A stretch of DNA of 60,044 nt, the filler included, from Sphacelaria rigidula (lineage: Eukaryota): NCBI GenBank assembly GCA_964200075.2. It is 9 parts of 9 records of this genome, joined end to end, with 100 filler letters (N's around TTAATTAATTAA, not from the genome) between each part and the next. Parts side by side here need not be neighbours in the genome. Positions count along the whole stretch, not along the records: positions 46,781 to 53,362 come from CAXNAA020019225.1; 8 more parts are not named here. One strand, written 5' to 3'. Below the pieces are notes generated by a model that worked only from the letters and a program-made list of their open reading frames with translations, was not told the DNA's origin and did not search any database. This document shows positions 32,689 to 53,810 of the stretch, piece by piece. Numbering within the stretch: the first letter of the stretch is position 1; every line of letters begins with the position of its first letter. Both the position numbers and the translations under genes were made by a program.

Positions 32689-33119
32689 CTGTAGGTGAAG
32701 TACCGTACCGAGCATACCCCGGTATTTACCGGGGTATCCCATACCGTGGTATTGGTGGGTATCGTAGGTATGAGTTATGAAAAGACCCGATAGAGCGGGT
32801 AAGGTAGGTATTGAAATTTCGAACTACCGTGGTATTATGGGCAATCGTAGGTATGAGTTTTGAAAGCACTACTTGATTGAGCGGGTGCAGTAGGTACTTG
32901 TATCTCGAAATACCGTGGTATCGTAGGTAATCGTAGGTATGGCATTTGAAAAATACCCGATTAGTCGGGTGCGGTAGGTACTTGTATCTCGAAATACCGT
33001 GGTATCGTAGGTTTCGTAGATATGACCGATACCTGATTAGGCGGGTACGGTAGGCGCTGGTATCTCGAAATACCGCGGTAAATACCGGGGGTACGCTCGG
33101 TACGGTACCTTACCTACCG
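32689..33119. mobile_element. TIR element with an internal ~60-bp minisatellite
   Basis: ~48-bp TIR gtaggtgaagtaccgtaccgagcatacccccggtatttacc / ggtaaataccgggggtacgctcggtacggtaccttacctac around about 5 units of cgaaataccgtggtatcgtaggt...cccgattgagcgggtacggtaggta. Confidence 0.85.
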
Positions 33120-35746: not shown

Positions 35747-37839
35747 CCGTAGGTGAGGTACCGTACCGAGCGTACCCCCGGTATTTACAGGGGTATCCCA
35801 GACCGTGGTATGCGTGGGTATCGTGGGTATGAGTGTCAAAAATGCCTGATTGAGCGGGTACAGTAGGTATTCAAATCTCGAAGTACCGTGGTATCGTAGG
35901 TATCGTAGGTATCGTAGGTATGGCATTTGAAAATACCCGATTGGGTGGGTACGGTAGGTACTGGCACCTCGAAATGCCGTGGCACCGTAGGCATCGTAGG
36001 TATGAAATTTGAAACCTGATTGGGCAGGTACGGTAAGTACTGCCATCTCGAAATACCGTGGTATCGTAGGCATCGTAGGTATGAAATTTGAAAATACCCG
36101 ATTGGGCAGGTACGGTAGGTACTGGTATCTCGAAATACCATGGTATCGTAGGTATGATATTTGAAAATGACCGACTGGGTCGGTATCGGTAGGGTACTGG
36201 TATTGCGGTAGTACGTAAGAGCAGGTGCAGTGGTACGAAAGAGCAGGTTCCTCTCCATGTAGTTGTATTTTTTCATACGAGCACCCGGCAATGGCGCACT
36301 ATTTACGGCATATATATATATATATATATGCAAGGTTATTTACTTGGTATTTCGGCACTCTTTGTCTATTTCGTATGCCTCCTGCGGCCCCTCACTTTCT
36401 TTATTAACTTTTCCTCATTTTCGTGCTTTTTTTCTCTCTGCTTGTTTGCACGTGGAAGATTATTGTGTATGATGCTCATGTTTAACATGAATAATGAAAA
36501 AATGTATGGCACCGTAACGTTGATACGATATGTATATCCATTTACCAAGAACATCAGACTGCATAATCATTAGTCAATCGAATTGATCCAAACACGAAAA
36601 ACAGGGGGAACCTCGGTACTGTACATATTGCTTGAGAAAACAAGACGTACCTGCTCCGATAACTTCTGGCCTTTGCGTAAGTTGGGACCAGCTGCTGCAC
36701 CGTGGGGAGTACATCGCGTCCGACTTTCACCGGGTATACCCCCCGTTTTTACCGGGGTATCCCATACCATGGTATGCGTGGGTATCGTAGGTATGAGGTT
36801 TGAAAATCCTCGATTGAGCAGGTGCGGTAGGTATTGAAATGTCGAAAAACCGTCGTATCGCAGGTATCGTAGGTATGAGGTTTGGAAACACCTGACTAAG
36901 CGGGTACGGTAGGTATTTGTGGTGAGCCGAGCTCTCGGAGGCTTTATGGTTTCGTACTGAACCAGTTCTAGTTTAAAAGACGGAATTGTGTACGGGAGAA
37001 TCGGGGTAAAATACGATAAAGTAATCCCTGTCCGGAATACAGAGACTGAATTGTGGTGTTTGAAGATTATGGAAGCATAATTCTAGTTGCGGGCAATAAG
37101 TGGGCTGACGTATTCTATGTTGAAGTAATAAAAGTAAAGGAAAACTTGTATTCCGGATCGGAGGTAGAACAAGTAGCTGTTGGGTGTACTCTGGGGCTGA
37201 AGAGTTAGTTCTTCTAGAGCTAACATCACAGGTTGGTTGTCAAGTACGACGGAAGGGATGAAGAGACACAAGGGTGAGGGCAGAAGGTGTATTCTGCACG
37301 CACCCCGCGCCGCACTCCTCTTCTACTCTTCCTGCTTCGGAGTTCTTTCCGGGGATTGATCATGACTCTGAGTTCGGTGAAAAGTACTTATTTTAGTGGG
37401 AAAACACAAAGTACGGTACAAATCATCAGCGAAAGAGACAGTTCACTATATATTCACCTTCTGGACACATCAACGCTTTTTGTCTTGAGCTTGTTTCGGA
37501 CACGACACTCGACTTCCACAAAAGCGGTTAGACCTACATTGGAGACTAGAGAAACAGCTTCTCTCCCGATATATTGAAATCTCGAAATACCGTGGTATCT
37601 CAGGTATCGTAAGTAGGACATTTGAAAATACCTGATTGAGCGGGTGCGGTAGGTGCTGAAATCTCGAAATACCGTCGCATCGTGGGTATCGTAGGTATGA
37701 CACTTGAAAATACCCGATCGAGCGGGTACGGTAGGTGTTGACATCTCGAAATACCGTGGTATCGTGGGTATCGTCGGTATGACATTTGAAAACACCCGAT
37801 TGAACCAGCAACGGTACCGGGTACCTACCTTACCTACGG
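35747..37839. mobile_element. Compound insertion of minisatellite-TIR element(s) inside the TCGATCGAAAA repeat
   Basis: CCGTAGGTGAGGTACC at the left end and CCTTACCTACGG at the right end; 60-bp units at 35810-36200, 36730-36917 and 37572-37810. Confidence 0.7.
36918..37571. mobile_element. Probable solo LTR (~654 bp)
   Basis: Interrupts the unit ggtaggtatt|gaaatctcg; TATT duplicated at 36914-36917 and 37572-37575; ends TGT...ATA (probably decayed TGT...ACA); no coding motifs. Confidence 0.6.
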
Positions 37840-40922: not shown

Positions 40923-43386
40923 GTGGCAGACACGTTGCACGTCCTAGGACGGTGTGTGCAGCAAGCGCATGGGGCACCCGAGGAGGCAGAGGAATATTTC
41001 CGTCGAGCGCTTCACCTCAAAATCGCCGTACAGTCGCGGAAGGAAGGCGACGAAGATCCCCAGGTGAGCCTTTTGAGGTTAGCATGTGCATGTATTTGGC
41101 TCCCGACCGTCTGGCGGGGCAGGGTTGCTCAAGGTGACACTATTGGACTGTCACTAAACCGATCTCCTGTCGCACCATGGCAGAGTGACAAGTTAGAATG
41201 ACGCGCAATAGGTGGGCAGCAGCATCATCGCGTGAGCGATAGAGGCGATGCAGGTACAACGTACTACAGCAATTGCAGTGTGTTCGGTGGCATTCGATAG
41301 GGGACTGATAGCAGAGAACATTTTATCCGACGAACTTCCCCAGTAACTGGCTGGCCTGGAGGTATTGGAACGTTCTACTTGATGACGTGTTACTCCACTG
41401 CCGTTCTTCGGCGTTTTTTTGGAGTGTTGGTTGATCCAGGTCGTCAGCATTGAGGTCGCCTCGCGACCGGTGCATGATTCCAGTAACCTTCATATTATCT
41501 TTTGCTTGCTACGACACTATATTTTGTGGCACCCGCTTTCAGCTGGCGCTCACCCTTTACGAGCTCGGGCGGTGTGTGCGAGAGGTCGGTAAACCGGCAG
41601 AAGCAGAGGGCTACCTCAGGCAGGCGCTTGAGATAAAGGAAACGGCACCGAAGGCAGACCAGCTTGGCATAGCGATGACGCTTCACTCCCTCGGCAGGTG
41701 CGTATCGCTCACCTCGCCATCAACCCGCATGAGCCATCAACTTCTCAGGGGGTCTGACGTTGAAATATCAAACACCATCAATTTATGGATCACACTATGT
41801 GAATCTGGGCGTCATTTTGCAATCAGTGTACATGGAAAAAAGCGTCCACCATGTCAAAAAAGGAAACAGTATCAATCATGGAAGAAATGGAACAGCATCA
41901 ATCGTGACAAAAATATTTTGCATATTCGACGCTCTCTACCCGCGACACCCTCTCACCCATATGCTCAAATGTGTGTCATTGCATATTTATTACAGGTGTC
42001 TCCGAGAGACCAATCGGCCAGATGACGCGGCCAAGTGCCTAGGGCGGGCGTTGGCTATCGCGGAGACAAAGCTGGGTTCTGCTGACGTACACGTCGGAGC
42101 CATACTCTTCACACTGGCGTTAAGCCTTCGAGACGCGGGGCGCCCAGAAGAGGCAGCACCGTTGCTCCGGAGAACCCTGGAGATCGAGCAGACCAACTTT
42201 GACCTTCACGATGCTCAGGTGACAATCGAAGCATGCTGTGCACTTACATATATTCAAATCCCAGCCGAAGCCAGAACATACTCCACGACTCCATTCTACC
42301 CTTTTCCTAAGTTTTTGAAAATCACATTCAGAGCAGTTTGGCCCATTGTTTGTCTAATTTCAATGCACCATTGACTAATGCCGAGATAGCCCCCCCACAA
42401 AAAGTGCCCCGGAGACCATCCGACAAGCCGGCTGCGATCCCACTATTGGGCTCGTCTGCAGCGAAATCATCCACATGAGAGGCGTGTAGCAGTCCGAAAT
42501 AAGCTATAACGCCCAAATGAGTCGCGTCGTGCAGCACGAAACCACGTTTAACGGCGTTCATGATCATCGCCTCCGTGCACGTTTTTGGCCGGTTCGGGGG
42601 GGGGGGGGGGGGGGGGGGGGGTTTTTTTTTTTTTTTTTTTTTTTNNNNNNNNNNGGTGGGGTGGGTGTGGTTGGCTGGCGGCGGCGTACGCATTTGTTGC
42701 TTGCCTTAGTCATTTGACCATTGACCACGCATCCCTTTCGAGACGGAGCATGGCATCTCGGCAGCAGTCCATTGTACTGTTGTAATGCGAAAAGAGGACC
42801 GCGTGCTTAGAGGACCTCATCGGAATTTGAACACCCCTATGGTTAGGATCAGGGTTAGTGTTGGGTTTAGGGTCAGGGGCGTGATCCCTGCGGGGACTGG
42901 CCCGATTGGTTTTGAAAAACGTCGATCCTAACGTGTTTTGAGCTACGATGCGGTCTCCTAAGCACGCGATCCTCTCACGCATTACAGTACATGACTGCTG
43001 TGCGGTGAGTGCGCCCCATATTGCTTAGCGAAACGTCGAATGTACGTACCGTGTGTCTGACATGGGTCCCCTCAATCCAACATCAGGTGGTGGACACTTT
43101 GCGCGAGCTGGAACACTGCGTTCGGGCCATTGGAGGCAGAGAGCAAGAAGCCGAGCGGTATTCCAAACTTGCGGCAAGAGCCGAAGATGAAAGAAATGCC
43201 CACCCGCTAAGACGGTGGATTAATGGAGAGAGTACGAGAAGCTTGCGCGATGATGTGCGACATCCCACCGAAAACGGACGCAAGAGGGATCACAGGGATG
43301 GATCACTGCCACCTTACGAGTCTAATGTCGTTGATATGCCTGGGATTCATGAAGTGTCCGGCAGCACATCCGGCACTACAGAATAG
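40923..43386 (+). CDS. TPR-repeat protein (kinesin-light-chain/nephrocystin-3-type 42-aa TPRs; possibly the 3' end of an NB-ARC-TPR gene). Exons 40923-41063, 41543-41697, 41996-42218, 43087-43386; 5' end is off the contig
   Basis: VA.TL..LG.C......EAE.Y.R.AL.I repeats; all junctions are GT-AG with compatible phases 0, 2, 0; stop at 43384-43386. Confidence 0.88.
42685..42750 (-). mobile_element. Minimal copy of the family A LINE tail (intronic)
   Basis: Reverse complement of tgctccgtctcgaaagggatgcgtggtcaatggtcaaatgactaaggcaagcaacaaatgcgtacgcc. Confidence 0.85.
42781..42987. mobile_element. ~210-bp TTAGGG-containing MITE (intronic)
   Basis: Same TIR and body as 18416-18627. Confidence 0.85.
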
Positions 43387-44689
43387 TGCTCTTCAGACAT
43401 GGGGAGGCACATCCGTATCTGGGACATGGCACCTACTGATGCCGTGGAGAGTGTATTGTCTGATTCAGTCGACATCACGATGGCTACCTGCAACATAAGT
43501 ACGGTACGTCTGCAGGCGTTTAGGTCTCTTCTTGTACCGTGACCGACAAGTCGATGTCGAAGACCTAGTCTGGGCTGTTGATCTGTTGTGCTGTCACGGA
43601 CACCTTCAAAATAGCCCGATGATGTGATTTTCCTTGTAGTGGCATCGTTCGAACTATCCAAGCGCGGGATGACCCTTGATGTTCCCTCGTGCTCGTGTCA
43701 CTACACCCCGTGATCTGGCTTTATCTGGTTTTTGCTGTTTTTATCACATGTGGCGATGATGTTGCTACTTTGATCTGGTGTTTGCTCTTCATCTACAAGT
43801 GATGTTGATTTTTCCACCTTGTGCTGCTGCCATTAATAGTAGGGTTGATGCCCCCTGGAAAACCTAGCGTTTCCCCGCTATTATTGTCCGAAAACCATTC
43901 CCATTTGTACATTGGGCGTTTCCTTGTATGATGCCCGCTTTGTTCCCTTGGTGGGTATAACCTTTTTAATATTGTGATTGTAATTTGGTGTTTCCCGAAT
44001 GCACACTAGAATGTCAGCCATTCGCTTCCACTTCGTGGCGAATCGTGCAGCCGTACTTTTTGCAACGAAAGTAAGCATTTTATTACACGAGATTCATCCG
44101 CGACAATTACAGCTCTGCCGACGGTCGGGAGTCCGAGGCGTTTTAAGAGGTTGCTGGGTACGACCCAAGACGTTAATCGAAGTTTATTTTTACCGGCGGT
44201 CAGAGGCATTTTCATATACTTTTCATCGTCCACCTTTCAGTATACGGCCAAGCGTTTCATGTGTTGAAAACAACCATGTGCTGTACTGTGTACATTCGCA
44301 TATGTTGAACTAGTGTGGGTATTGGAGCATGCAGATGTGGTTTTCACCTGTAGCCTACAGTCATGGTATGTACTTACAATGTGGTTCGGACGGTTCAAGA
44401 TGTCTTTTTGACGGGAATGAGAAAAAATTACGCAGCATATCCGCAACGGGGTCGGGGGGGGGGGGAATTTACGGTAGTGCCAAAGCCGGCGTCCTCCTGT
44501 CCGTCATTCGGTACGAAGGCTAATGTCGATGCGATGCGAACAGATACTACAGTTGTATTCTGTAGTTGTAAATACGAGGGCATCAGCTTCGGTTCGACCA
44601 CTGGTTGGTATGTCGAGAGTTTTTCATGTTGCGAAGTTTCATTCTCCCGAGTTGCTTGTTAATGTCCATGCCCCCCCCCCCCGTGTGTG

Positions 44690-44860
44690 TGTGATATACT
44701 ACGAGATAGATGGTGGCCATAGACGGCGAAAAAGGACGGGCATAAGGACTGTCAACGGTATTTGTGTAATGTATGCAAGAAACGTAATGAGTACCCGAAT
44801 GTTGGAGGTGCGTGGTCAGTGGTCATTCGACGAAGGCAAGCAACGAATGAGTACCACCCT
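44690..44860 (+). mobile_element. 5'-truncated, internally deleted copy of LINE family A
   Basis: Matches 14625-14730 plus the tail; flanked on both sides by C-run + gtgt (probable TSD). Confidence 0.75.
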
Positions 44861-44879
44861 CCCCCCCTGTGTCAGTACG

Positions 44880-45075
44880 CTTCGGGCCGAAATGTATTTG
44901 CAGGATGCAGTTCACCCTTCATGTGACTAACCGAACACACCACGGCGCTTCGCGCTTGGTAATCGATTGCGAGCCTGGTCCGGCGAAAACACGGCGTGCT
45001 CCGTCCGGGCTTTGTAGGGGTGCGAGGTCAATGGTCTGATGACTATGGCATGCAAGATCAGGGATACCTCGACCC
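44880..45075 (+). mobile_element. 3' end of related non-LTR family B
   Basis: Colinear with 53600-53800; shares tgctccgtc...tgcgaggtca...tgacta.ggca with family A. Confidence 0.65.
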
Positions 45076-46780: not shown

Positions 46781-46850
46781 AGGAACGGAGCTCCCTGACG
46801 AGAAGGATGCGTGGTGAATGCTCAAACGACTAAGACAAACAACAAATGAT
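46781..46850 (+). mobile_element. Diverged family A LINE tail followed by an 18-nt C-run
   Basis: aggatgcgtggtgaatgctcaaacgactaagacaaacaacaaatga then poly-C. Confidence 0.75.
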
Positions 46851-47919: not shown

Positions 47920-50900
47920 GGACAAGGACGAGTCCGTGGTCTCGAGGGATCAACCCATCTCCCCCCGGTACATGCCTTGCATTTTAGTGCCGTGGATTGG
48001 ATCATGACCGGCACTCGCGCATCGCGTCGACTCGTGTGAAGAAAAAAAAACTCGTTCAAATAACTTTTTGTTGTTGTCTAGTCGCGTGCTCATGCTTTCG
48101 ATGGTTTACATTTTTTTTTTGTCTGCTTTGCTTTGGTCGCTGCCAGTTAATTTTTTTTTGTGTTTTTTCCTTGCATCGCTCTCTTCTGCAGGACTTCGCA
48201 GAGGGCAAGAAGGGTGATGAGCTGGGAGCGGACGAAGAGAGGCCGTGCATGCTGTTCTTGGATTCCCTCGACATGCACCAATCCAACAGGATATGGCAGT
48301 ACCTGTGGCGGTGAGTGACATCCTGAACACCGGCAGGGACGCAGCCAAAACTGCGGCATTTGGTCGCACAGACACAAGAAGCGCACGGCACCCCTAGCGC
48401 CAAAGCGATACACTCCAACCTTGCGTGCCTTGAAGTAAATTGAAAGACCTCGCAACGAGAAAAGGCAGGTTTGTGTGTGTGTGCACTTGCTGGACAGGAT
48501 CCCACGAGTCACACTTACAATGACAAGTCACGAGTGATGTCACCACGGTAGGGGTGCACAAATATTTTCCGAGGCTAGCATTTTTTACGAATAGGAGCCG
48601 TTTATCTCATCCAAAACACGACTTATGGAATACGTGAGAGTACGCCAGGATTACACCATTTCAATGTGTTGAAGATATCCCAAATGAGTTTTCGAAAACG
48701 GGGATGCCCTGATGCATATTCTTGTGCATCTAGAATCGTTACGAGCCCCTGAACCTGACAAGATTTTGCGCAAAAAGTGCACCCCTACCGTAGCATCGCT
48801 CTCACCACCACCATCATCACCGAGGAGTACTGACTCCAGTTCATAGCCCCAAATCCATGGTTGAAATTGTTTTAAATGACAATAAAGGTAACCCTAATCC
48901 TAATCCTAATCCTAACCAACCAAGGCATACCGCTAACTCTCGGGCAAGGGGGGTGCAAGGAGTGCCCTAGGCCACGTGTGCGTTAGCATACCTCAAATCG
49001 GCGCCGATTTTGGACAAAAATGCATTTTGCACACGCTAGGAGCACTCGGGACTGTCAGCCTAACCAAATATCCGAATCTCGTTGTTCCCACTAAAATCAA
49101 GGACGTTTCAGCGATGGATTTGGGGGCTACGAACTGGGGTTACATCCGCGTGGACTGCAGAAAGCAATGCATTCCCCCGTTTCTGAGCTCTCTCGGCGTG
49201 GGGGGCTCCAGCTCCCTCACGTAGAGACGATATCACTACTTGTACTCGTAGCATTTTGTCCTTGTGGCAGTATGCGCAAGACGACGGCCAGGAGCAGGTG
49301 CATGATGTGGTACACAATGCTGTGAGAGGTTGCGCAGCACAGCCCTGTACGGTGCGATGGAAGCTGAGTGGAGAATGTCCGCTGTATGCGTTATGTAAAT
49401 TCGGACCAGCAAGCCGATACCCGATCTTCTCTGGTTTCGAAGAGCTGGGGTCCCGCGGTTCACAGCACTAGCCAGATGTTGAGTTCACGTCAGCAATCAC
49501 CCCGCACTGGGTATAATAATAGTGGGGTGCAGCAGCGTCACGCAAATGGTTGCACGCACGGCCCAATTTGACGACTCTTGAGCTGAAATTTCACGAAGAC
49601 CTTCTGCGCTCAAGGAAATGATACATCCCGTGAGCAGCTGCCGATTCTCATCTTTTCCCTGGACTTGTGACATTATCTTGTTTTTGCTGAAACTTCAAAT
49701 TCCTATAACTTCCTTTGTTTTTCTTTTTTTCTTTGCTGGTCACCTGATCTTCTGCATGTCGAGCATTAAAAGCTGCTGTCAAAATTTCAGCGTCCATCTC
49801 CCAATATCGCACCGTGCGTCGCCTGAGCGAGAGAACCACCCATTGTTGGCTGGCCCAGCTCGTATCATCCCGGCGACACAAACTTGAGGATTGTGGTTTG
49901 AGCACCACCTGTTTATTTTTCTCAATACCTATCGACTCTAGCACTTTCGAGTGCTAAGCAAAAACAGTGTAACAATATGCGAGAAGAAAAAAAAAAAATC
50001 ACCGAATTTGCATGCAGACTACTATAGTAGCGATCAACCCAACCCCACGGAAGTGGAATAAGAACCCAACCCACAGAAGTGAAACATGAAGAAATGTGTG
50101 TGTGGTGTTGCCATCCATCTGTTCTGGACGCTAGTTTGCACCATTCGGTACAAGTGGGCGCATCAGCCGGGGTACACACAGGAGGAAGGTCAACACAGGA
50201 GCTTGATTGTAGCTTTCATTTCGTTATTTACCATTCCACCTCCATTCTGCGATGCTTTCCTTACGCTGTATTGTGAGGATTGGTCCATTCGAGCAAACAT
50301 ACCAATGAGTCGGAAGCTGGGGCTGTGTAGTCGCAGGAACCCCGAGAACCGGTTTCTCCGTACGTCGTTCAAAAGTGAATGCAGAAATGATTTTTCCGGG
50401 ATGTGAAGCTGATGCTGGTATCCCCCGAAGGGTCAAACGTTCATTGTGATGAGCGGTTGTTGTTGTCGTCGTTTTCAGAATAAAAACCGTTCCGATATTC
50501 GCGCAGCACGAGTACTCCGCACCGGGCATCTGATGCCAACGCCCTCGGTGTTCACAAGCTAACTATCCGTCGTGACGTACTTCCTCTATCCCATAAGTAA
50601 AGGTACCTAAATTTGTACGGGCTCTTACCGATGTCCGATCGTTTTTTTTTTGTAATGAGCTCAACGGTGTTATTTGGGTTAAGAAAACGTGTTTAAAATT
50701 CGCAGCTCGTGCTTGAACCATGCAGCCGCGCGGCCGAGTTAAAGTAGGTCGGCCCAAAAACGGCCATTTTTCGCTCGTTTTCCCAGGAAAGCATGATAGA
50801 CCCGGGAACACGAAAAACCGCGAAAAATGGGCCGATAAATGTGAAAATCGCGAAACCACCGTTGATTTTGGATATGTCCGTGATATTAAGCTACGCACGC

Positions 50901-52732: not shown

Positions 52733-52934
52733 GTACGTAGTCATGCTTCACGGTAGCACATGATCGCACCCCAGGTAGTTTAGAGGTTCTCAGGACACTT
52801 CGAAGTGTCGAGCATTTCGGGGTACAGTCGACCCCGCTTTGAAGACGCTCTGGTTAAGTCAAGTCAACTCCCCGCGATAAAGACGCAAAAAAAATCAGAA
52901 CCGTGGTGCCCCGCAGATGTAATGTAGGTGGGGG

Positions 52935-53001
52935 GCGTACTCATTTGTTGCTTGCCTTAGTCATTTGACCATTGACCACGCATCCCTTTCGAGACGGAGC
53001 A
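52935..53001 (-). mobile_element. 67-bp minimal copy of the family A LINE tail with an 18-bp TSD
   Basis: atgtaatgtaggtggggg duplicated at 52917-52934 and 53002-53019. Confidence 0.92.
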
Positions 53002-53311: not shown

Positions 53312-53362
53312 GGCGTTCTCATTTGTTGCTTGCCTTGGTCGTGTGACCATTGACCACGCATC
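53312..53362 (-). mobile_element. Family A LINE tail next to a G-tract (cut by contig end)
   Basis: gcgttctcatttgttgcttgccttggtcgtgtgaccattgaccacgcatc preceded by G-rich sequence. Confidence 0.8.
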
Positions 53363-53462: not shown

Positions 53463-53599
53463 CTGTTCCTCCCCCCCCCCCCCCCCAACCCCCAGACACC
53501 ATGAGCATGAGGCAATGCAACCTGTAGCTTGTCTCTGGAAGTGGTGATACCAGAAAAGGGGCAACTCATTGTACTCAGTCATGTATATGCAAGATTATT

Positions 53600-53810
53600 A
53601 GCACGCTTTGGGCCGAACAATCCTAGCAGGATGCAGCTCACCCTTCATGCAGCTCGCCGAACACATGACAGCGCTTCGCGCTCGATGATTAATGGCGAGC
53701 CTGGTCCGGCGAAACCCGGCGTGCCCCGTCCCGGCTTCGTTGGGATGCGAGGTCAACGGCCATATGACTACGGCACGCAAAATAAATGAGTACACTCTCC
53801 CCACCCCCGT
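53600..53810 (+). mobile_element. 3' end of non-LTR family B followed by a C-rich tract
   Basis: cgtgccccgtcccggcttcgttgggatgcgaggtcaacggccatatgactacggcacgcaaaataaatgagtac then ctctcccaccccc. Confidence 0.7.

What the first reader, a model, noticed from the sequence alone, without database searches (positions are those of the whole stretch)
52935..53001. Conserved three-way-junction RNA at the LINE 3' end, with independent mini-copies starting at the same nucleotide
Seen: the sense sequence folds as a closing stem TGCT/GGCA, hairpin CGTCTC-GAAA-GGGATG, junction CGTG, hairpin GTCA-(9 nt)-TGAC, junction TAA. Three copies on three contigs (5' ends at 23029, 42750 and 53001) all begin exactly at TGCTCCG, the first base of the closing stem, although random 5' truncation should scatter the ends. 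Inference: a defined ~67-nt RNA is being mobilised (a processed or self-cleaved product, or a promoterless mini-SINE), or RT reproducibly terminates at the base of the structure. The topology resembles a type III hammerhead but lacks the CUGANGA/GAAA core, so it is not a canonical hammerhead.
Basis: partly seen in the sequence, partly recalled or inferred. Interest (0 to 1): 0.7.

Follow-up and report, generated by a model that had tools for sequence, protein, structure and literature searches.

The report
Head-less 66-nt LINE-tail mini-retroposon
The last 66 bases of a brown-alga-type jumping gene (an RTE-X-like LINE) have been copied into the genome many times as tiny stand-alone inserts that nearly always start at the same base, which is real and unusual, but there is no sign that the piece is a ribozyme.

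Summary
Three short copies (53001, 42750, 23029, minus strand) start at the same T of TGCTCCG. The copy at 52936-53001 has a perfect 18-nt target-site duplication.

Public contigs laid on an intact relative show the same thing. The best-supported 5'-side break in 1.2 kb of LINE 3' end lies at this base in two of three DNA runs. Head-to-tail unit-(C)n-unit joints peak there within ±2 nt in all three.

The unit is not a 3' UTR. It is the last 20 codons, the stop codon and 5 nt of a 1382-aa endonuclease/reverse-transcriptase ORF. Target-derived C runs follow it. This matches the published Ectocarpus RTE-X LINEs, which have a (C)n 3' end, C-rich duplications and non-autonomous partners sharing about 60 bp of tail. 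A roughly 190-nt SINE-like element in the window shares the same tail.

The three-way junction and the ribozyme idea find no support. Folding energies are no better than shuffles, no pair covaries, Rfam gives no hit, and the base before the break is G.

Best reading: this is the reverse-transcriptase recognition module, and cDNA synthesis mostly ends at its edge. What sets that 5' end is unknown.

The parts
52936..53001 (-). Mini-copy E: the complete 66-nt unit (TGCTCCG...GAGTACG), identical to the tail of intact LINE copies
   Evidence: identical to the tails of L051 and L177
53002..53019 (-). 5' copy of the 18-nt target-site duplication of E (CCCCCACCTACATTACAT)
   Evidence: 0 of 500 shuffles as high
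52917..52935 (-). One extra C (52935) plus the 3' copy of the 18-nt duplication of E. The 'poly(C) tail' here is therefore almost wholly target DNA
42685..42750 (-). Mini-copy D, same first base, one difference from E (GCG for GAG). The 3' flank is C-rich and then cut by an N gap
22959..23029 (-). Mini-copy C, same first base. Older copy: 6 substitutions and a 5-nt insertion. No detectable duplication
13367..14821 (+). Copy B: degenerate 3' part of the LINE (RT C-terminus, CCHC motif, frame broken), cut by the piece start. The unit lies at 14756-14821
   Evidence: 76% identical to L177 over 1467 nt
1..42 (+). Copy A: 3' part of the unit, cut by the window start, so the 5' end cannot be read
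53314..53362 (-). Copy F: 3' part of the unit, cut by the end of piece 8, so the 5' end cannot be read
46781..46849 (+). Copy G: diverged copy that runs 8 nt upstream of the unit start (AGGAACGG) and is then cut by the piece start. Hairpin 1 is destroyed
44687..44856 (+). Copy H: a 5'-truncated LINE copy starting about 135-150 nt upstream of the unit. It has a 43-nt internal deletion that removes unit nt 1-20 and a C-rich/GTGT duplication
44873..45062 (+). Element I: a roughly 190-nt SINE-like element whose last ~66 nt are a frame-shifted homologue of the unit
53600..53796 (+). Element J: second copy of the same SINE-like element (80% identical to I, same 5' start). Its tail is at 53722-53796

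Best explanation
The 66-nt unit is the 3'-terminal cis module of a single-ORF LINE with an apurinic-type endonuclease and a reverse transcriptase. The LINE is of the kind annotated as RTE-X in the brown alga Ectocarpus. The unit comprises the last 20 codons, the TGA stop and 5 nt.

Shown: the LINE integrates next to C runs, so copies are followed by C tracts and have C-rich duplications.

Inferred: the LINE's reverse transcriptase recognises this module. That would explain why a head-bearing SINE-like element carries the same module, and why it is better conserved than the coding sequence just upstream.

Inferred: most integration events copy only the module. cDNA synthesis ends at its 5' edge, where in the LINE RNA a predicted 6-bp hairpin (GGAGUA/UGCUCC) meets its loop. 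This gives dead-on-arrival, head-less mini-copies with one common first base.

Inferred: each insertion duplicates the C-run target, so new copies land beside old ones and build head-to-tail arrays of unit-(C)n-unit.
For: Identity of the element:
- The intact copy L177 has a 1382-aa open frame with Exo_endo_phos (E 8e-11) and RVT_1 (E 7e-32). The frame ends ...NGAPSRKGCVVNGQMTKASNK* inside the unit, 5 nt before the C run.
- Its nearest named relatives are Ectocarpus proteins (71%, 52% and 47% identity over the last 483 aa).
- The Ectocarpus TE curation lists RTEX-1/2 as 'single EN-RT ORF; (C)n 3'', with C-rich duplications. It also lists RTEX-N1 (607 bp, 'can be present in tandem', 60 bp of 3' end shared) and RTEX-N2 (188 bp).

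Common 5' end:
- Three of four readable 5' ends in the window lie at unit nt 1, and copy E has an 18-nt duplication.
- In one search, loose ends at L177 position 173 (= unit nt 1) number 379 contigs in X1 and 314 in X4. This is the best-supported 5'-side break among the six rows shown per run. The letters beyond the break are C-rich on the sense strand.
- Among the joint rows shown, joints from 170-175 back to 95-101 number 171 contigs in X1, 51 in X4 and 128 in X3. Of these, 100, 36 and 79 start at exactly 173.
- Summed word depth over the unit is 21.5 million in X1, against 4.4 million in the next bin and at most 2 million elsewhere. X4, X3 and X10 show the same shape.

Cis role of the module:
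- Elements I and J keep the tail at nucleotide level although a 5-nt insertion shifts the frame.
- Among long LINE copies the unit is more conserved than the 157 nt upstream: 62/66 against 126/157 for L177 versus B, Fisher p 0.009.

Hairpin at the boundary: predicted, in the sixth fold.
Against: - The mechanism that ends the cDNA is inferred only, and no RNA data could be read.
- RT pausing is usually expected at the 3' foot of a stem. Here the break lies after the stem's 3' strand has already been copied.
- The predicted folds are no better than shuffles.
- One search uses assembled contigs, not reads. Only the best rows are printed (15 joints shown, 787 more not shown; 24 loose-end rows shown, 2830 more not shown). 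Depth is one figure per contig and is not a copy number.
- For run X3 the six loose-end rows shown do not include position 173, although rows with only 80 contigs are shown.
- The unit's higher conservation could also reflect a constrained C-terminal peptide. 'VVNG' persists in relatives of 31-52% identity.
- RTE-X membership was not tested by phylogeny.
Confidence: 0.5

Rival explanations
1. A discrete short RNA is the template. The LINE transcript, or a transcript running through a LINE copy, is cut by a host nuclease just 5' of unit nt 1, in the loop of the GGAGUA/UGCUCC hairpin. Alternatively a short RNA starts there. The reverse transcriptase then runs off the 5' end. End-to-end template jumps onto other RNAs would give the unit-(C)n-unit arrays and the SINE-like chimeras.
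For: - The 5' ends are sharply peaked within ±2 nt, as expected for run-off on a defined RNA end.
- The boundary of the mini-copies lies at, or within a few bases of, the point where elements I and J join the tail.
- Head-to-tail joints lie at exactly this base.
- The break falls at a predicted loop/stem junction.
- Template jumping by non-LTR reverse transcriptases is established knowledge. It is recalled here; the papers in the listing were not read.
Against: - No RNA evidence was available. All runs are contigs, which cannot show RNA ends.
- No known processing signal was found: no tRNA-like gene and no Rfam match.
- The arrays are explained equally well by repeated insertion at the duplicated C-run target.
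Confidence: 0.25
2. The mini-copies are a self-propagating, promoter-less mini-SINE lineage. Copies lying inside host transcripts are recognised in trans by the LINE reverse transcriptase and copied again.
For: - The unit is very abundant compared with the LINE body (depth; 8 family copies in 59 kb).
- LINE-dependent non-autonomous families are the most abundant TEs in Ectocarpus.
Against: - A template embedded in a host transcript gives no reason for the cDNA to stop at unit nt 1. Copies should then carry variable 5' flank sequence.
- Mini-copies D and E carry no mutation that separates them from intact LINE tails. E is identical to L051 and L177, as expected if each is made directly from LINE RNA.
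Confidence: 0.12
3. The unit, or the unit with its upstream neighbour, is a self-cleaving ribozyme that releases an RNA starting at unit nt 1.
For: Only the sharp common 5' end and the fact that a multi-stem fold can be drawn.
Against: - No ribozyme family of Rfam 15 matches, even at E up to 10, on the degenerate copy or on the intact copy.
- The CUGANGA/GAAA core is absent from the consensus unit.
- The base before the break is G, not the H of a hammerhead NUH site.
- The only complement to nt 1-5 lies at nt 60-64. That leaves no room for the P4 and P2 strands of an HDV-like fold (read directly from the sequence).
- Fold energies are not above shuffles, and no pair covaries.
Confidence: 0.03
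4. Ordinary random 5' truncation. The three shared ends in the window are a coincidence.
For: LINE copies are commonly 5'-truncated, and copy H shows that other end points occur.
Against: - Three of four readable ends share one base.
- The same base is the top 5'-side loose end in X1 and X4, and the peak of the tandem joints in X1, X4 and X3.
Confidence: 0.02

Closest known systems
RTE-X LINEs RTEX-1/RTEX-2_Ec32 and their non-autonomous partners RTEX-N1 (607 bp) and RTEX-N2 (188 bp) of Ectocarpus (Genome Biol 2025, PMC12477816; I read passages of the main text and part 1 of supplementary file 1)
   Same: - A single EN-RT ORF, a (C)n 3' end and C-rich target-site duplications.
- Non-autonomous elements sharing about 60 bp of the LINE 3' end.
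- Tandem arrangement is noted for RTEX-N1.
- A SINE-like partner of about 190 nt (I/J here, against 188 bp for RTEX-N2).
- Ectocarpus proteins are the closest named relatives of the ORF.
   Different: The passages and table part that I read list no element made of the tail alone, and no common 5' break point. Here the bare 66-nt tail is itself the most abundant form. Parts 2-3 of that table, the consensus FASTA files and the PDF supplement were not read or cannot be read here, so such an entry may exist there.
Stringent-type LINE/SINE pairs that share a 3' tail recognised by the LINE protein: eel UnaL2/UnaSINE1 and zebrafish L2 LINEs (PMC1636434, PMC4176376; only the abstracts in the listing were seen)
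   Same: The LINE and its non-autonomous partner share a conserved 3' tail of some tens of nucleotides that contains a hairpin. Here the shared stretch matches the mobilised unit.
   Different: - Those tails lie in a 3' UTR and end in short repeats. Here the tail is coding sequence followed by a C run.
- Recognition by the protein has not been tested here, and the hairpins have no covariation support.
Ordinary dead-on-arrival 5'-truncated LINE copies
   Same: Co-linear with the LINE 3' end, flanked by a target-site duplication, and lacking a promoter.
   Different: Their 5' ends normally scatter. Here they pile up on one base, within ±2 nt.
Zepp LINE clusters of Chlorella, where new copies insert into the tails of older copies
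   Same: Head-to-tail arrays of 5'-truncated LINE copies built by a preference for the element's own tail sequence.
   Different: Zepp uses poly(A) tails and the copies vary in length. Here the target is a C run and the copies have one fixed, very short length.
Type III hammerhead ribozyme, and retrozyme-like small tandem repeats (features recalled; Rfam models tested)
   Same: A small unit, tandem arrays and a multi-stem drawing.
   Different: There is no catalytic core, no NUH cleavage site and no Rfam match.

Membership tests
RTE-X-type LINE with a (C)n 3' end (as RTEX-1/2_Ec32) | A single ORF with an apurinic-type endonuclease followed by a reverse transcriptase | tested here: met
   L177 has a 1382-aa frame with PF03372 (E 8e-11), PF14529 and PF00078 (E 7e-32)
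RTE-X-type LINE with a (C)n 3' end (as RTEX-1/2_Ec32) | A (C)n or C-rich 3' terminus instead of poly(A) | tested here: met
   All 12 tails read (10 in the window, aligned or read, plus L051, L105 and L177) are followed by C-rich tracts
RTE-X-type LINE with a (C)n 3' end (as RTEX-1/2_Ec32) | C-rich target-site duplications | tested here: met
   Copies E and H have duplications that begin with a C run. C and D show none. The 5' flanks are C-rich
RTE-X-type LINE with a (C)n 3' end (as RTEX-1/2_Ec32) | Placement of the RT inside the RTE-X clade in a phylogeny | not tested
   No Repbase or RTE-X reference proteins were at hand. The link rests on Ectocarpus homologues and on shared structural features
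SINE (LINE-dependent non-autonomous retroposon) | A 3' tail shared with a partner LINE | tested here: met
   The mini-copies are identical or nearly identical to the LINE tail
SINE (LINE-dependent non-autonomous retroposon) | A 5' head with an internal RNA polymerase III promoter (derived from tRNA, 5S or 7SL) | tested here: not met
   The mini-copies have no head at all. ARAGORN finds 0 genes and Rfam has no match in the window
Hammerhead ribozyme | The CUGANGA and GAAA core, and a cleavage site after NUH | tested here: not met
   The core is absent from the consensus unit and the base before the break is G. Rfam gives no match at E up to 10
Hammerhead ribozyme | A three-way junction supported by covariation | tested here: not met
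   0 of 14 pairs change on both sides, and all 500 shuffles reach the observed score. The power is low: 8 sequences, and elements I and J are misaligned in the 5' third
HDV-like and other self-cleaving ribozymes in Rfam (pistol, hatchet, twister and others) | A match to the family's covariance model | tested here: not met
   Models without pseudoknots can miss HDV-like folds
HDV-like and other self-cleaving ribozymes in Rfam (pistol, hatchet, twister and others) | Self-cleavage in vitro | not testable with these tools
   Needs a bench assay
Randomly 5'-truncated LINE copies | 5' ends scattered along the element | tested here: not met
   There is a peak at one base

The most novel reading that the evidence does not exclude
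The unit is released in vivo as a discrete RNA of about 70 nt. It would be cut at the loop/stem junction just upstream of the last 20 codons, or formed as a fixed-length 3' fragment of a message whose stop codon lies 5 nt from its end. This head-less RNA would be the real template. That would make it one of the smallest retroposons known, amplified to a very high copy number in a brown alga. It would also be the seed from which SINE-like partners are built, by template jumps from its 5' end.
Probability: 0.2. Interest if true: 0.7.

Novelty: new variant of a known kind. Interest (0 to 1): 0.45.

Why it matters
If the LINE's reverse transcriptase really stops, or runs off, at the edge of a 66-nt module in most integration events, that module marks the minimal RNA the enzyme needs. 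This is of interest for three reasons:
- It bears on how stringent-type LINEs choose their template.
- It bears on how SINE heads become fused to LINE tails at a fixed point.
- Brown-algal genome annotation may scatter a very abundant 66-nt repeat with C-run flanks among 'LINE fragments', simple repeats and assembly breaks. Three of the nine window pieces begin or end inside this repeat (pieces 1 and 8).

The family itself, its C-run ends and its non-autonomous partners are already in print for Ectocarpus, so the advance is modest.

Tried and rejected
Laid contigs stand in for it.
- The single metagenome scan used a 17-nt degenerate pattern that was too short. Only 2 loci (L051, L105) are the LINE. 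Two more (L036, L087, E 2.7e-4 over 33 model positions) were not examined, and the other 114 gave no nhmmer hit at E ≤ 1e-3.
- A 20-nt pattern in genome contigs gave 53 loci. Of these, 52 share a protein-coding context (...MGCVVNGPGE...) that I take, from memory, to be the bacterial ispG/gcpE gene. They match only because the LINE's C-terminal peptide contains GCVVNG. One locus (L156, fetched whole as L177) is the LINE, sitting in a contig binned with a bacterial MAG.
- A second pattern found only that same contig. Both patterns found nothing in viral contigs.
- The records behind L051 and L105 are not held.
- The search of earlier findings returned nothing.
- Rfam gave only chance-level rows with E of 4.5-7.5 (snoR118, H19_3, serC, sR39, skipping-rope).
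- One search used a mistyped structure, with the closing helix three columns off, and is void. One search is the corrected count.
- In one search the second sequence (element J) was given coordinates that start 14 nt inside its tail, so that fold is not used.
- Microhomology at the 5' junction does not explain the shared first base. The three upstream flanks end in ...CCT...CCA and ...CAT, and the T is not part of E's duplication.
I draw no conclusion on expression from them.
- X10 showed no hot spot at position 173 among its six loose-end rows and no 173 joints, but only 412 contigs of that run were laid.

Full report
WHAT THE WINDOW IS

The 60,044 bases are nine pieces of about 6,583 nt joined by N44-TTAATTAATTAA-N44 linkers. 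No whole genome is held for it.

THE OBSERVATION

On the minus strand at 53001-52936 lies TGCTCCGTCTCGAAAGGGATGCGTGGTCAATGGTCAAATGACTAAGGCAAGCAACAAATGAGTACG.

- The 26-nt 5' part occurs four times in the window at up to 3 mismatches, and the 30-nt 3' part five times. None is expected by chance.
- A profile search finds ten copies. I label them A-J.
- A blastn of an intact element (L177, see below) against the window puts the 5' ends of copies C (23029), D (42750) and E (53001) at the same element position, 5087. The DNA in front of each is unrelated.
- Copy E is flanked by a perfect 18-nt duplication, CCCCCACCTACATTACAT, which none of 500 shuffles matched. It is therefore a retroposed insert in its own right.
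- C and D show no duplication above shuffles. D's 3' flank is cut by an N gap.
- Copies A, B, F and G are cut by piece ends.
- Copy H starts about 135-150 nt further upstream and has a duplication that begins with a C run.
- So three of the four readable 5' ends of this family fall on one base.

WHAT THE UNIT BELONGS TO

A 20-nt pattern scan of prokaryote genome contigs brought one true match, a 5,259-nt contig binned with a bacterial MAG (locus L177).

- L177 carries an uninterrupted 1,382-aa frame with endonuclease (PF03372, PF14529) and reverse-transcriptase (PF00078) domains and a C-terminal C-x2-C...H...C motif.
- The frame ends ...NGAPSRKGCVVNGQMTKASNK*. Its TGA is unit nt 59-61. The unit is therefore the last 20 codons, the stop and 5 nt, not a 3' UTR.
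- Two metagenome loci (L051, L105) show the same arrangement.
- After GAGTACG every copy continues with a C-rich tract. In copy E, five of the six Cs belong to the duplication, so the C 'tail' is at least partly target DNA.
- The closest named relatives of the ORF are Ectocarpus proteins (71%, 52% and 47% identity over the last 483 aa), and there is a short Undaria match. Together with TTAGGG-type repeats and 'algae metagenome' holders, this points to a brown alga.

WHAT IS IN PRINT

The curated Ectocarpus TE library (PMC12477816) was read as main-text passages and as part 1 of supplementary file 1. It lists:

- RTEX-1 and RTEX-2 as 'single EN-RT ORF; (C)n 3'', with C-rich duplications.
- RTEX-N1 (607 bp): 'can be present in tandem', with a '60 bp 3' end' shared with RTEX-1/2.
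- RTEX-N2 (188 bp): 'could be SINE'.

The LINE kind, its C-run ends, its tail-sharing parasites and tandem arrangement are therefore known. In what I read I found no tail-only element and no fixed 5' break point. Parts 2-3 of that table, the FASTA libraries and the PDF supplement were not read or cannot be read here. The searches turned up no such description in the titles and abstracts listed.

A PARTNER ELEMENT IN THE WINDOW

Elements I (44873-45062) and J (53600-53796) are 80% identical over about 190 nt and start at the same base. Their last ~66 nt are homologous to the unit from TGCYCCGTC onward. A 5-nt insertion in the first hairpin shifts the reading frame, so the likeness is kept at nucleotide level, not protein level. 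No tRNA, 5S or other Rfam head was found.

IS THE COMMON 5' END GENOME-WIDE?

Contigs of four public runs were laid on L177:60-1300. The runs were X1 and X4 (organism A), X3 (an algae metagenome) and X10 (organism C, possibly RNA). The element lies on the minus strand there, and unit nt 1 is position 173.

- Summed word depth over the unit (bins 102-185) is 21.5-21.6 million in X1. The next bin has 4.4 million and every other bin between 0.0015 and 2 million. X4, X3 and X10 have the same shape. This figure is one value per contig and is not a copy number.
- Among the six loose-end rows shown per run, the 5'-side hot spot is position 173, with 379 contigs in X1 and 314 in X4. The letters beyond it are G-rich on the laid strand, which means C-rich in front of TGCTCC on the sense strand.
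- The row at position 206 has a LINE-like consensus. It reflects subfamily divergence, not a break.
- For X3, position 173 is not among the six rows shown. The answer says that not everything was counted for X1 and X3.
- 'Goes back' joints run from 170-175 to 95-101, that is, unit-(C)n-unit head to tail. In the rows shown they number 171 contigs in X1, 51 in X4 and 128 in X3. Of these, 100, 36 and 79 start at exactly 173.
- X10 shows none of these joints.
- Only 15 joints are shown (787 more are not) and 24 loose-end rows (2,830 more are not).
- Contigs that enter a high-copy repeat break after about 30 nt. The numbers of 5' and 3' junction contigs therefore cannot be compared.

With these limits, the laid contigs agree with the window: one base is the strongly preferred 5' end.

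STRUCTURE AND RIBOZYME

- The unit's MFE is -15.1 kcal/mol, z = -0.76, and 39 of 200 shuffles fold as well. Longer contexts and variant copies give z values from -0.09 to +1.2.
- The only recurring elements are GUCUC-GAAA-GGGAU and UGGUC-AAAU-GACUA.
The shuffles reach the observed covariation score in 500 of 500 and 471 of 500 cases (one search was mistyped).
- Most copies are dead on arrival and I/J are misaligned in the 5' third, so this test has little power.
- Rfam gives nothing at gathering score in the window, and only chance rows (E 4.5-7.5) around copy B, around the intact tail and around element I.
- The base before the break is G, which excludes a hammerhead site.
- The only complement to nt 1-5 lies at nt 60-64, which leaves no room for an HDV-like fold.
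- Copy G reads CTGACGAG where the others read CGTCTCGA. This looks like a hammerhead box, but it is a decayed copy in which the first hairpin is lost.

EVIDENCE FOR A CIS ROLE

- Among long copies the unit is more conserved than the 157 nt of coding sequence just upstream. L177 versus B gives 62/66 against 126/157 (p = 0.009). L051 versus B gives p = 0.005, L105 versus B p = 0.034, and L177 versus L105 p = 0.11.
- A relative that is 73% identical over the last 483 aa keeps 18 of the last 19 residues. 'VVNG' persists in relatives of 31-52% identity.
- That pattern could reflect a constrained peptide, a constrained RNA, or both.
- The frame-shifted tails of I and J speak for the RNA.

HOW IT MOST LIKELY WORKS

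Shown:
- The element is a single-ORF EN/RT LINE.
- The unit is its 3' end.
- Insertion sites are C-rich and are duplicated.
- Mini-copies have one preferred first base.
- Units stand head to tail, separated by C runs.

Inferred:
- The unit is the RNA that the LINE protein must bind, as in stringent-type LINE/SINE pairs (abstracts of PMC1636434 and PMC4176376 in the listing).
- In most events cDNA synthesis ends at the 5' edge of this module. In the LINE RNA, unit nt 1-6 (UGCUCC) are predicted to pair with GGAGUA seven bases upstream, and the break falls exactly at the loop/stem junction.
- Each insertion duplicates its C-run target. A new target is therefore left on both sides of every copy, which would build arrays without any further mechanism.

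I give this reading about 0.5. The main rival, at 0.25, is a discrete RNA that begins at nt 1 and is copied to its end, with template jumps making the arrays and the SINE-like chimeras. A self-propagating promoter-less lineage (0.12) does not explain why cDNA would stop at nt 1, and it is not backed by diagnostic mutations. A ribozyme (0.03) and chance (0.02) are unlikely.

VERDICT

It belongs to a published kind of element. The head-less, fixed-length tail copy and its sharp 5' end are a new variant worth a bench test. The three-way-junction and ribozyme reading is not supported.

Noticed in passing
window 6584-6683, 13267-13366 and six more joints: The window is a concatenation of nine equal pieces (~6583 nt) joined by N44-TTAATTAATTAA-N44 linkers. 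Piece 1 begins inside the LINE-tail repeat, and piece 8 both begins and ends inside it.
   Followed up: yes
window 44873-45062 and 53600-53796 (+): Two copies (80% identical, same 5' start AGYACGCTTYGGGCCGAA) of a ~190-nt SINE-like element. Its tail is homologous to the LINE unit. No tRNA, 5S or other Rfam head was detected. It is similar in size and design to the published RTEX-N2_Ec32 (188 bp).
   Followed up: partly
window 60-75 and 14841-14856 (+): Copies A and B are both followed, right after their C tracts, by TATCG(T/C)AGGATGACTC (15 of 16 identical). After that the flanks diverge. This could be a shared target motif, a subfamily 3' extension, or chance.
   Followed up: partly
window 44807-44811 (copy H): Copy H lacks 43 nt: the last 23 nt upstream of the unit plus unit nt 1-20. 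The deletion lies between GGAGGTG and GGGATG, which suggests a microhomology-mediated deletion or a template switch.
   Followed up: partly
L119-L171 except L156 (genome contigs): The 20-mer GGGATGCGTGGTCAATGGTC of the unit matches 52 bacterial genomes exactly, always inside a coding context ...MGCVVNGPGE.... I take this, from memory, to be ispG/gcpE. It is a codon-level coincidence with the LINE's C-terminal GCVVNG.
   Followed up: partly
L177 (G001:C43, 5259 nt): A contig binned with an uncultured-bacterium MAG is almost entirely a full-length eukaryotic (brown-alga-type) LINE with an intact 1382-aa ORF. It is probably binning contamination.
   Followed up: partly
window 58-699 (-): A different retroelement RT frame (RVT_1, E 1e-16) lies on the opposite strand directly next to copy A. 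Further long frames lie upstream of it, up to about 6385.
   Followed up: no
window 18475-18518, 42830-42880, 48889-48917: Short or degenerate TTAGGG/CCCTAA telomere-like repeats lie inside the pieces.
   Followed up: no
window 32741-33080, 35802-36155, 36729-36920, 37575-37803: An 82-86-nt tandem repeat family (…GGTATCGTAGGTATGA…) is shared by pieces 5 and 6.
   Followed up: no
window 41733-42374 (+): A frame with tetratricopeptide repeats (TPR_12, E 1e-8) lies about 300 nt from mini-copy D.
   Followed up: no
L177:95-130, run X10: In the run of organism C, a high-depth joint goes from 130 back to 95 with 8 other letters between. This suggests a shorter (~36-44-nt) tandem derivative of the tail's 3' part in another species.
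   Followed up: no
window 42596-42655, 53463-53490: Long homopolymer runs (A22, C26/G26, G-rich) abut N gaps. They look like assembly or scaffolding artefacts at C-run repeat ends.
   Followed up: no
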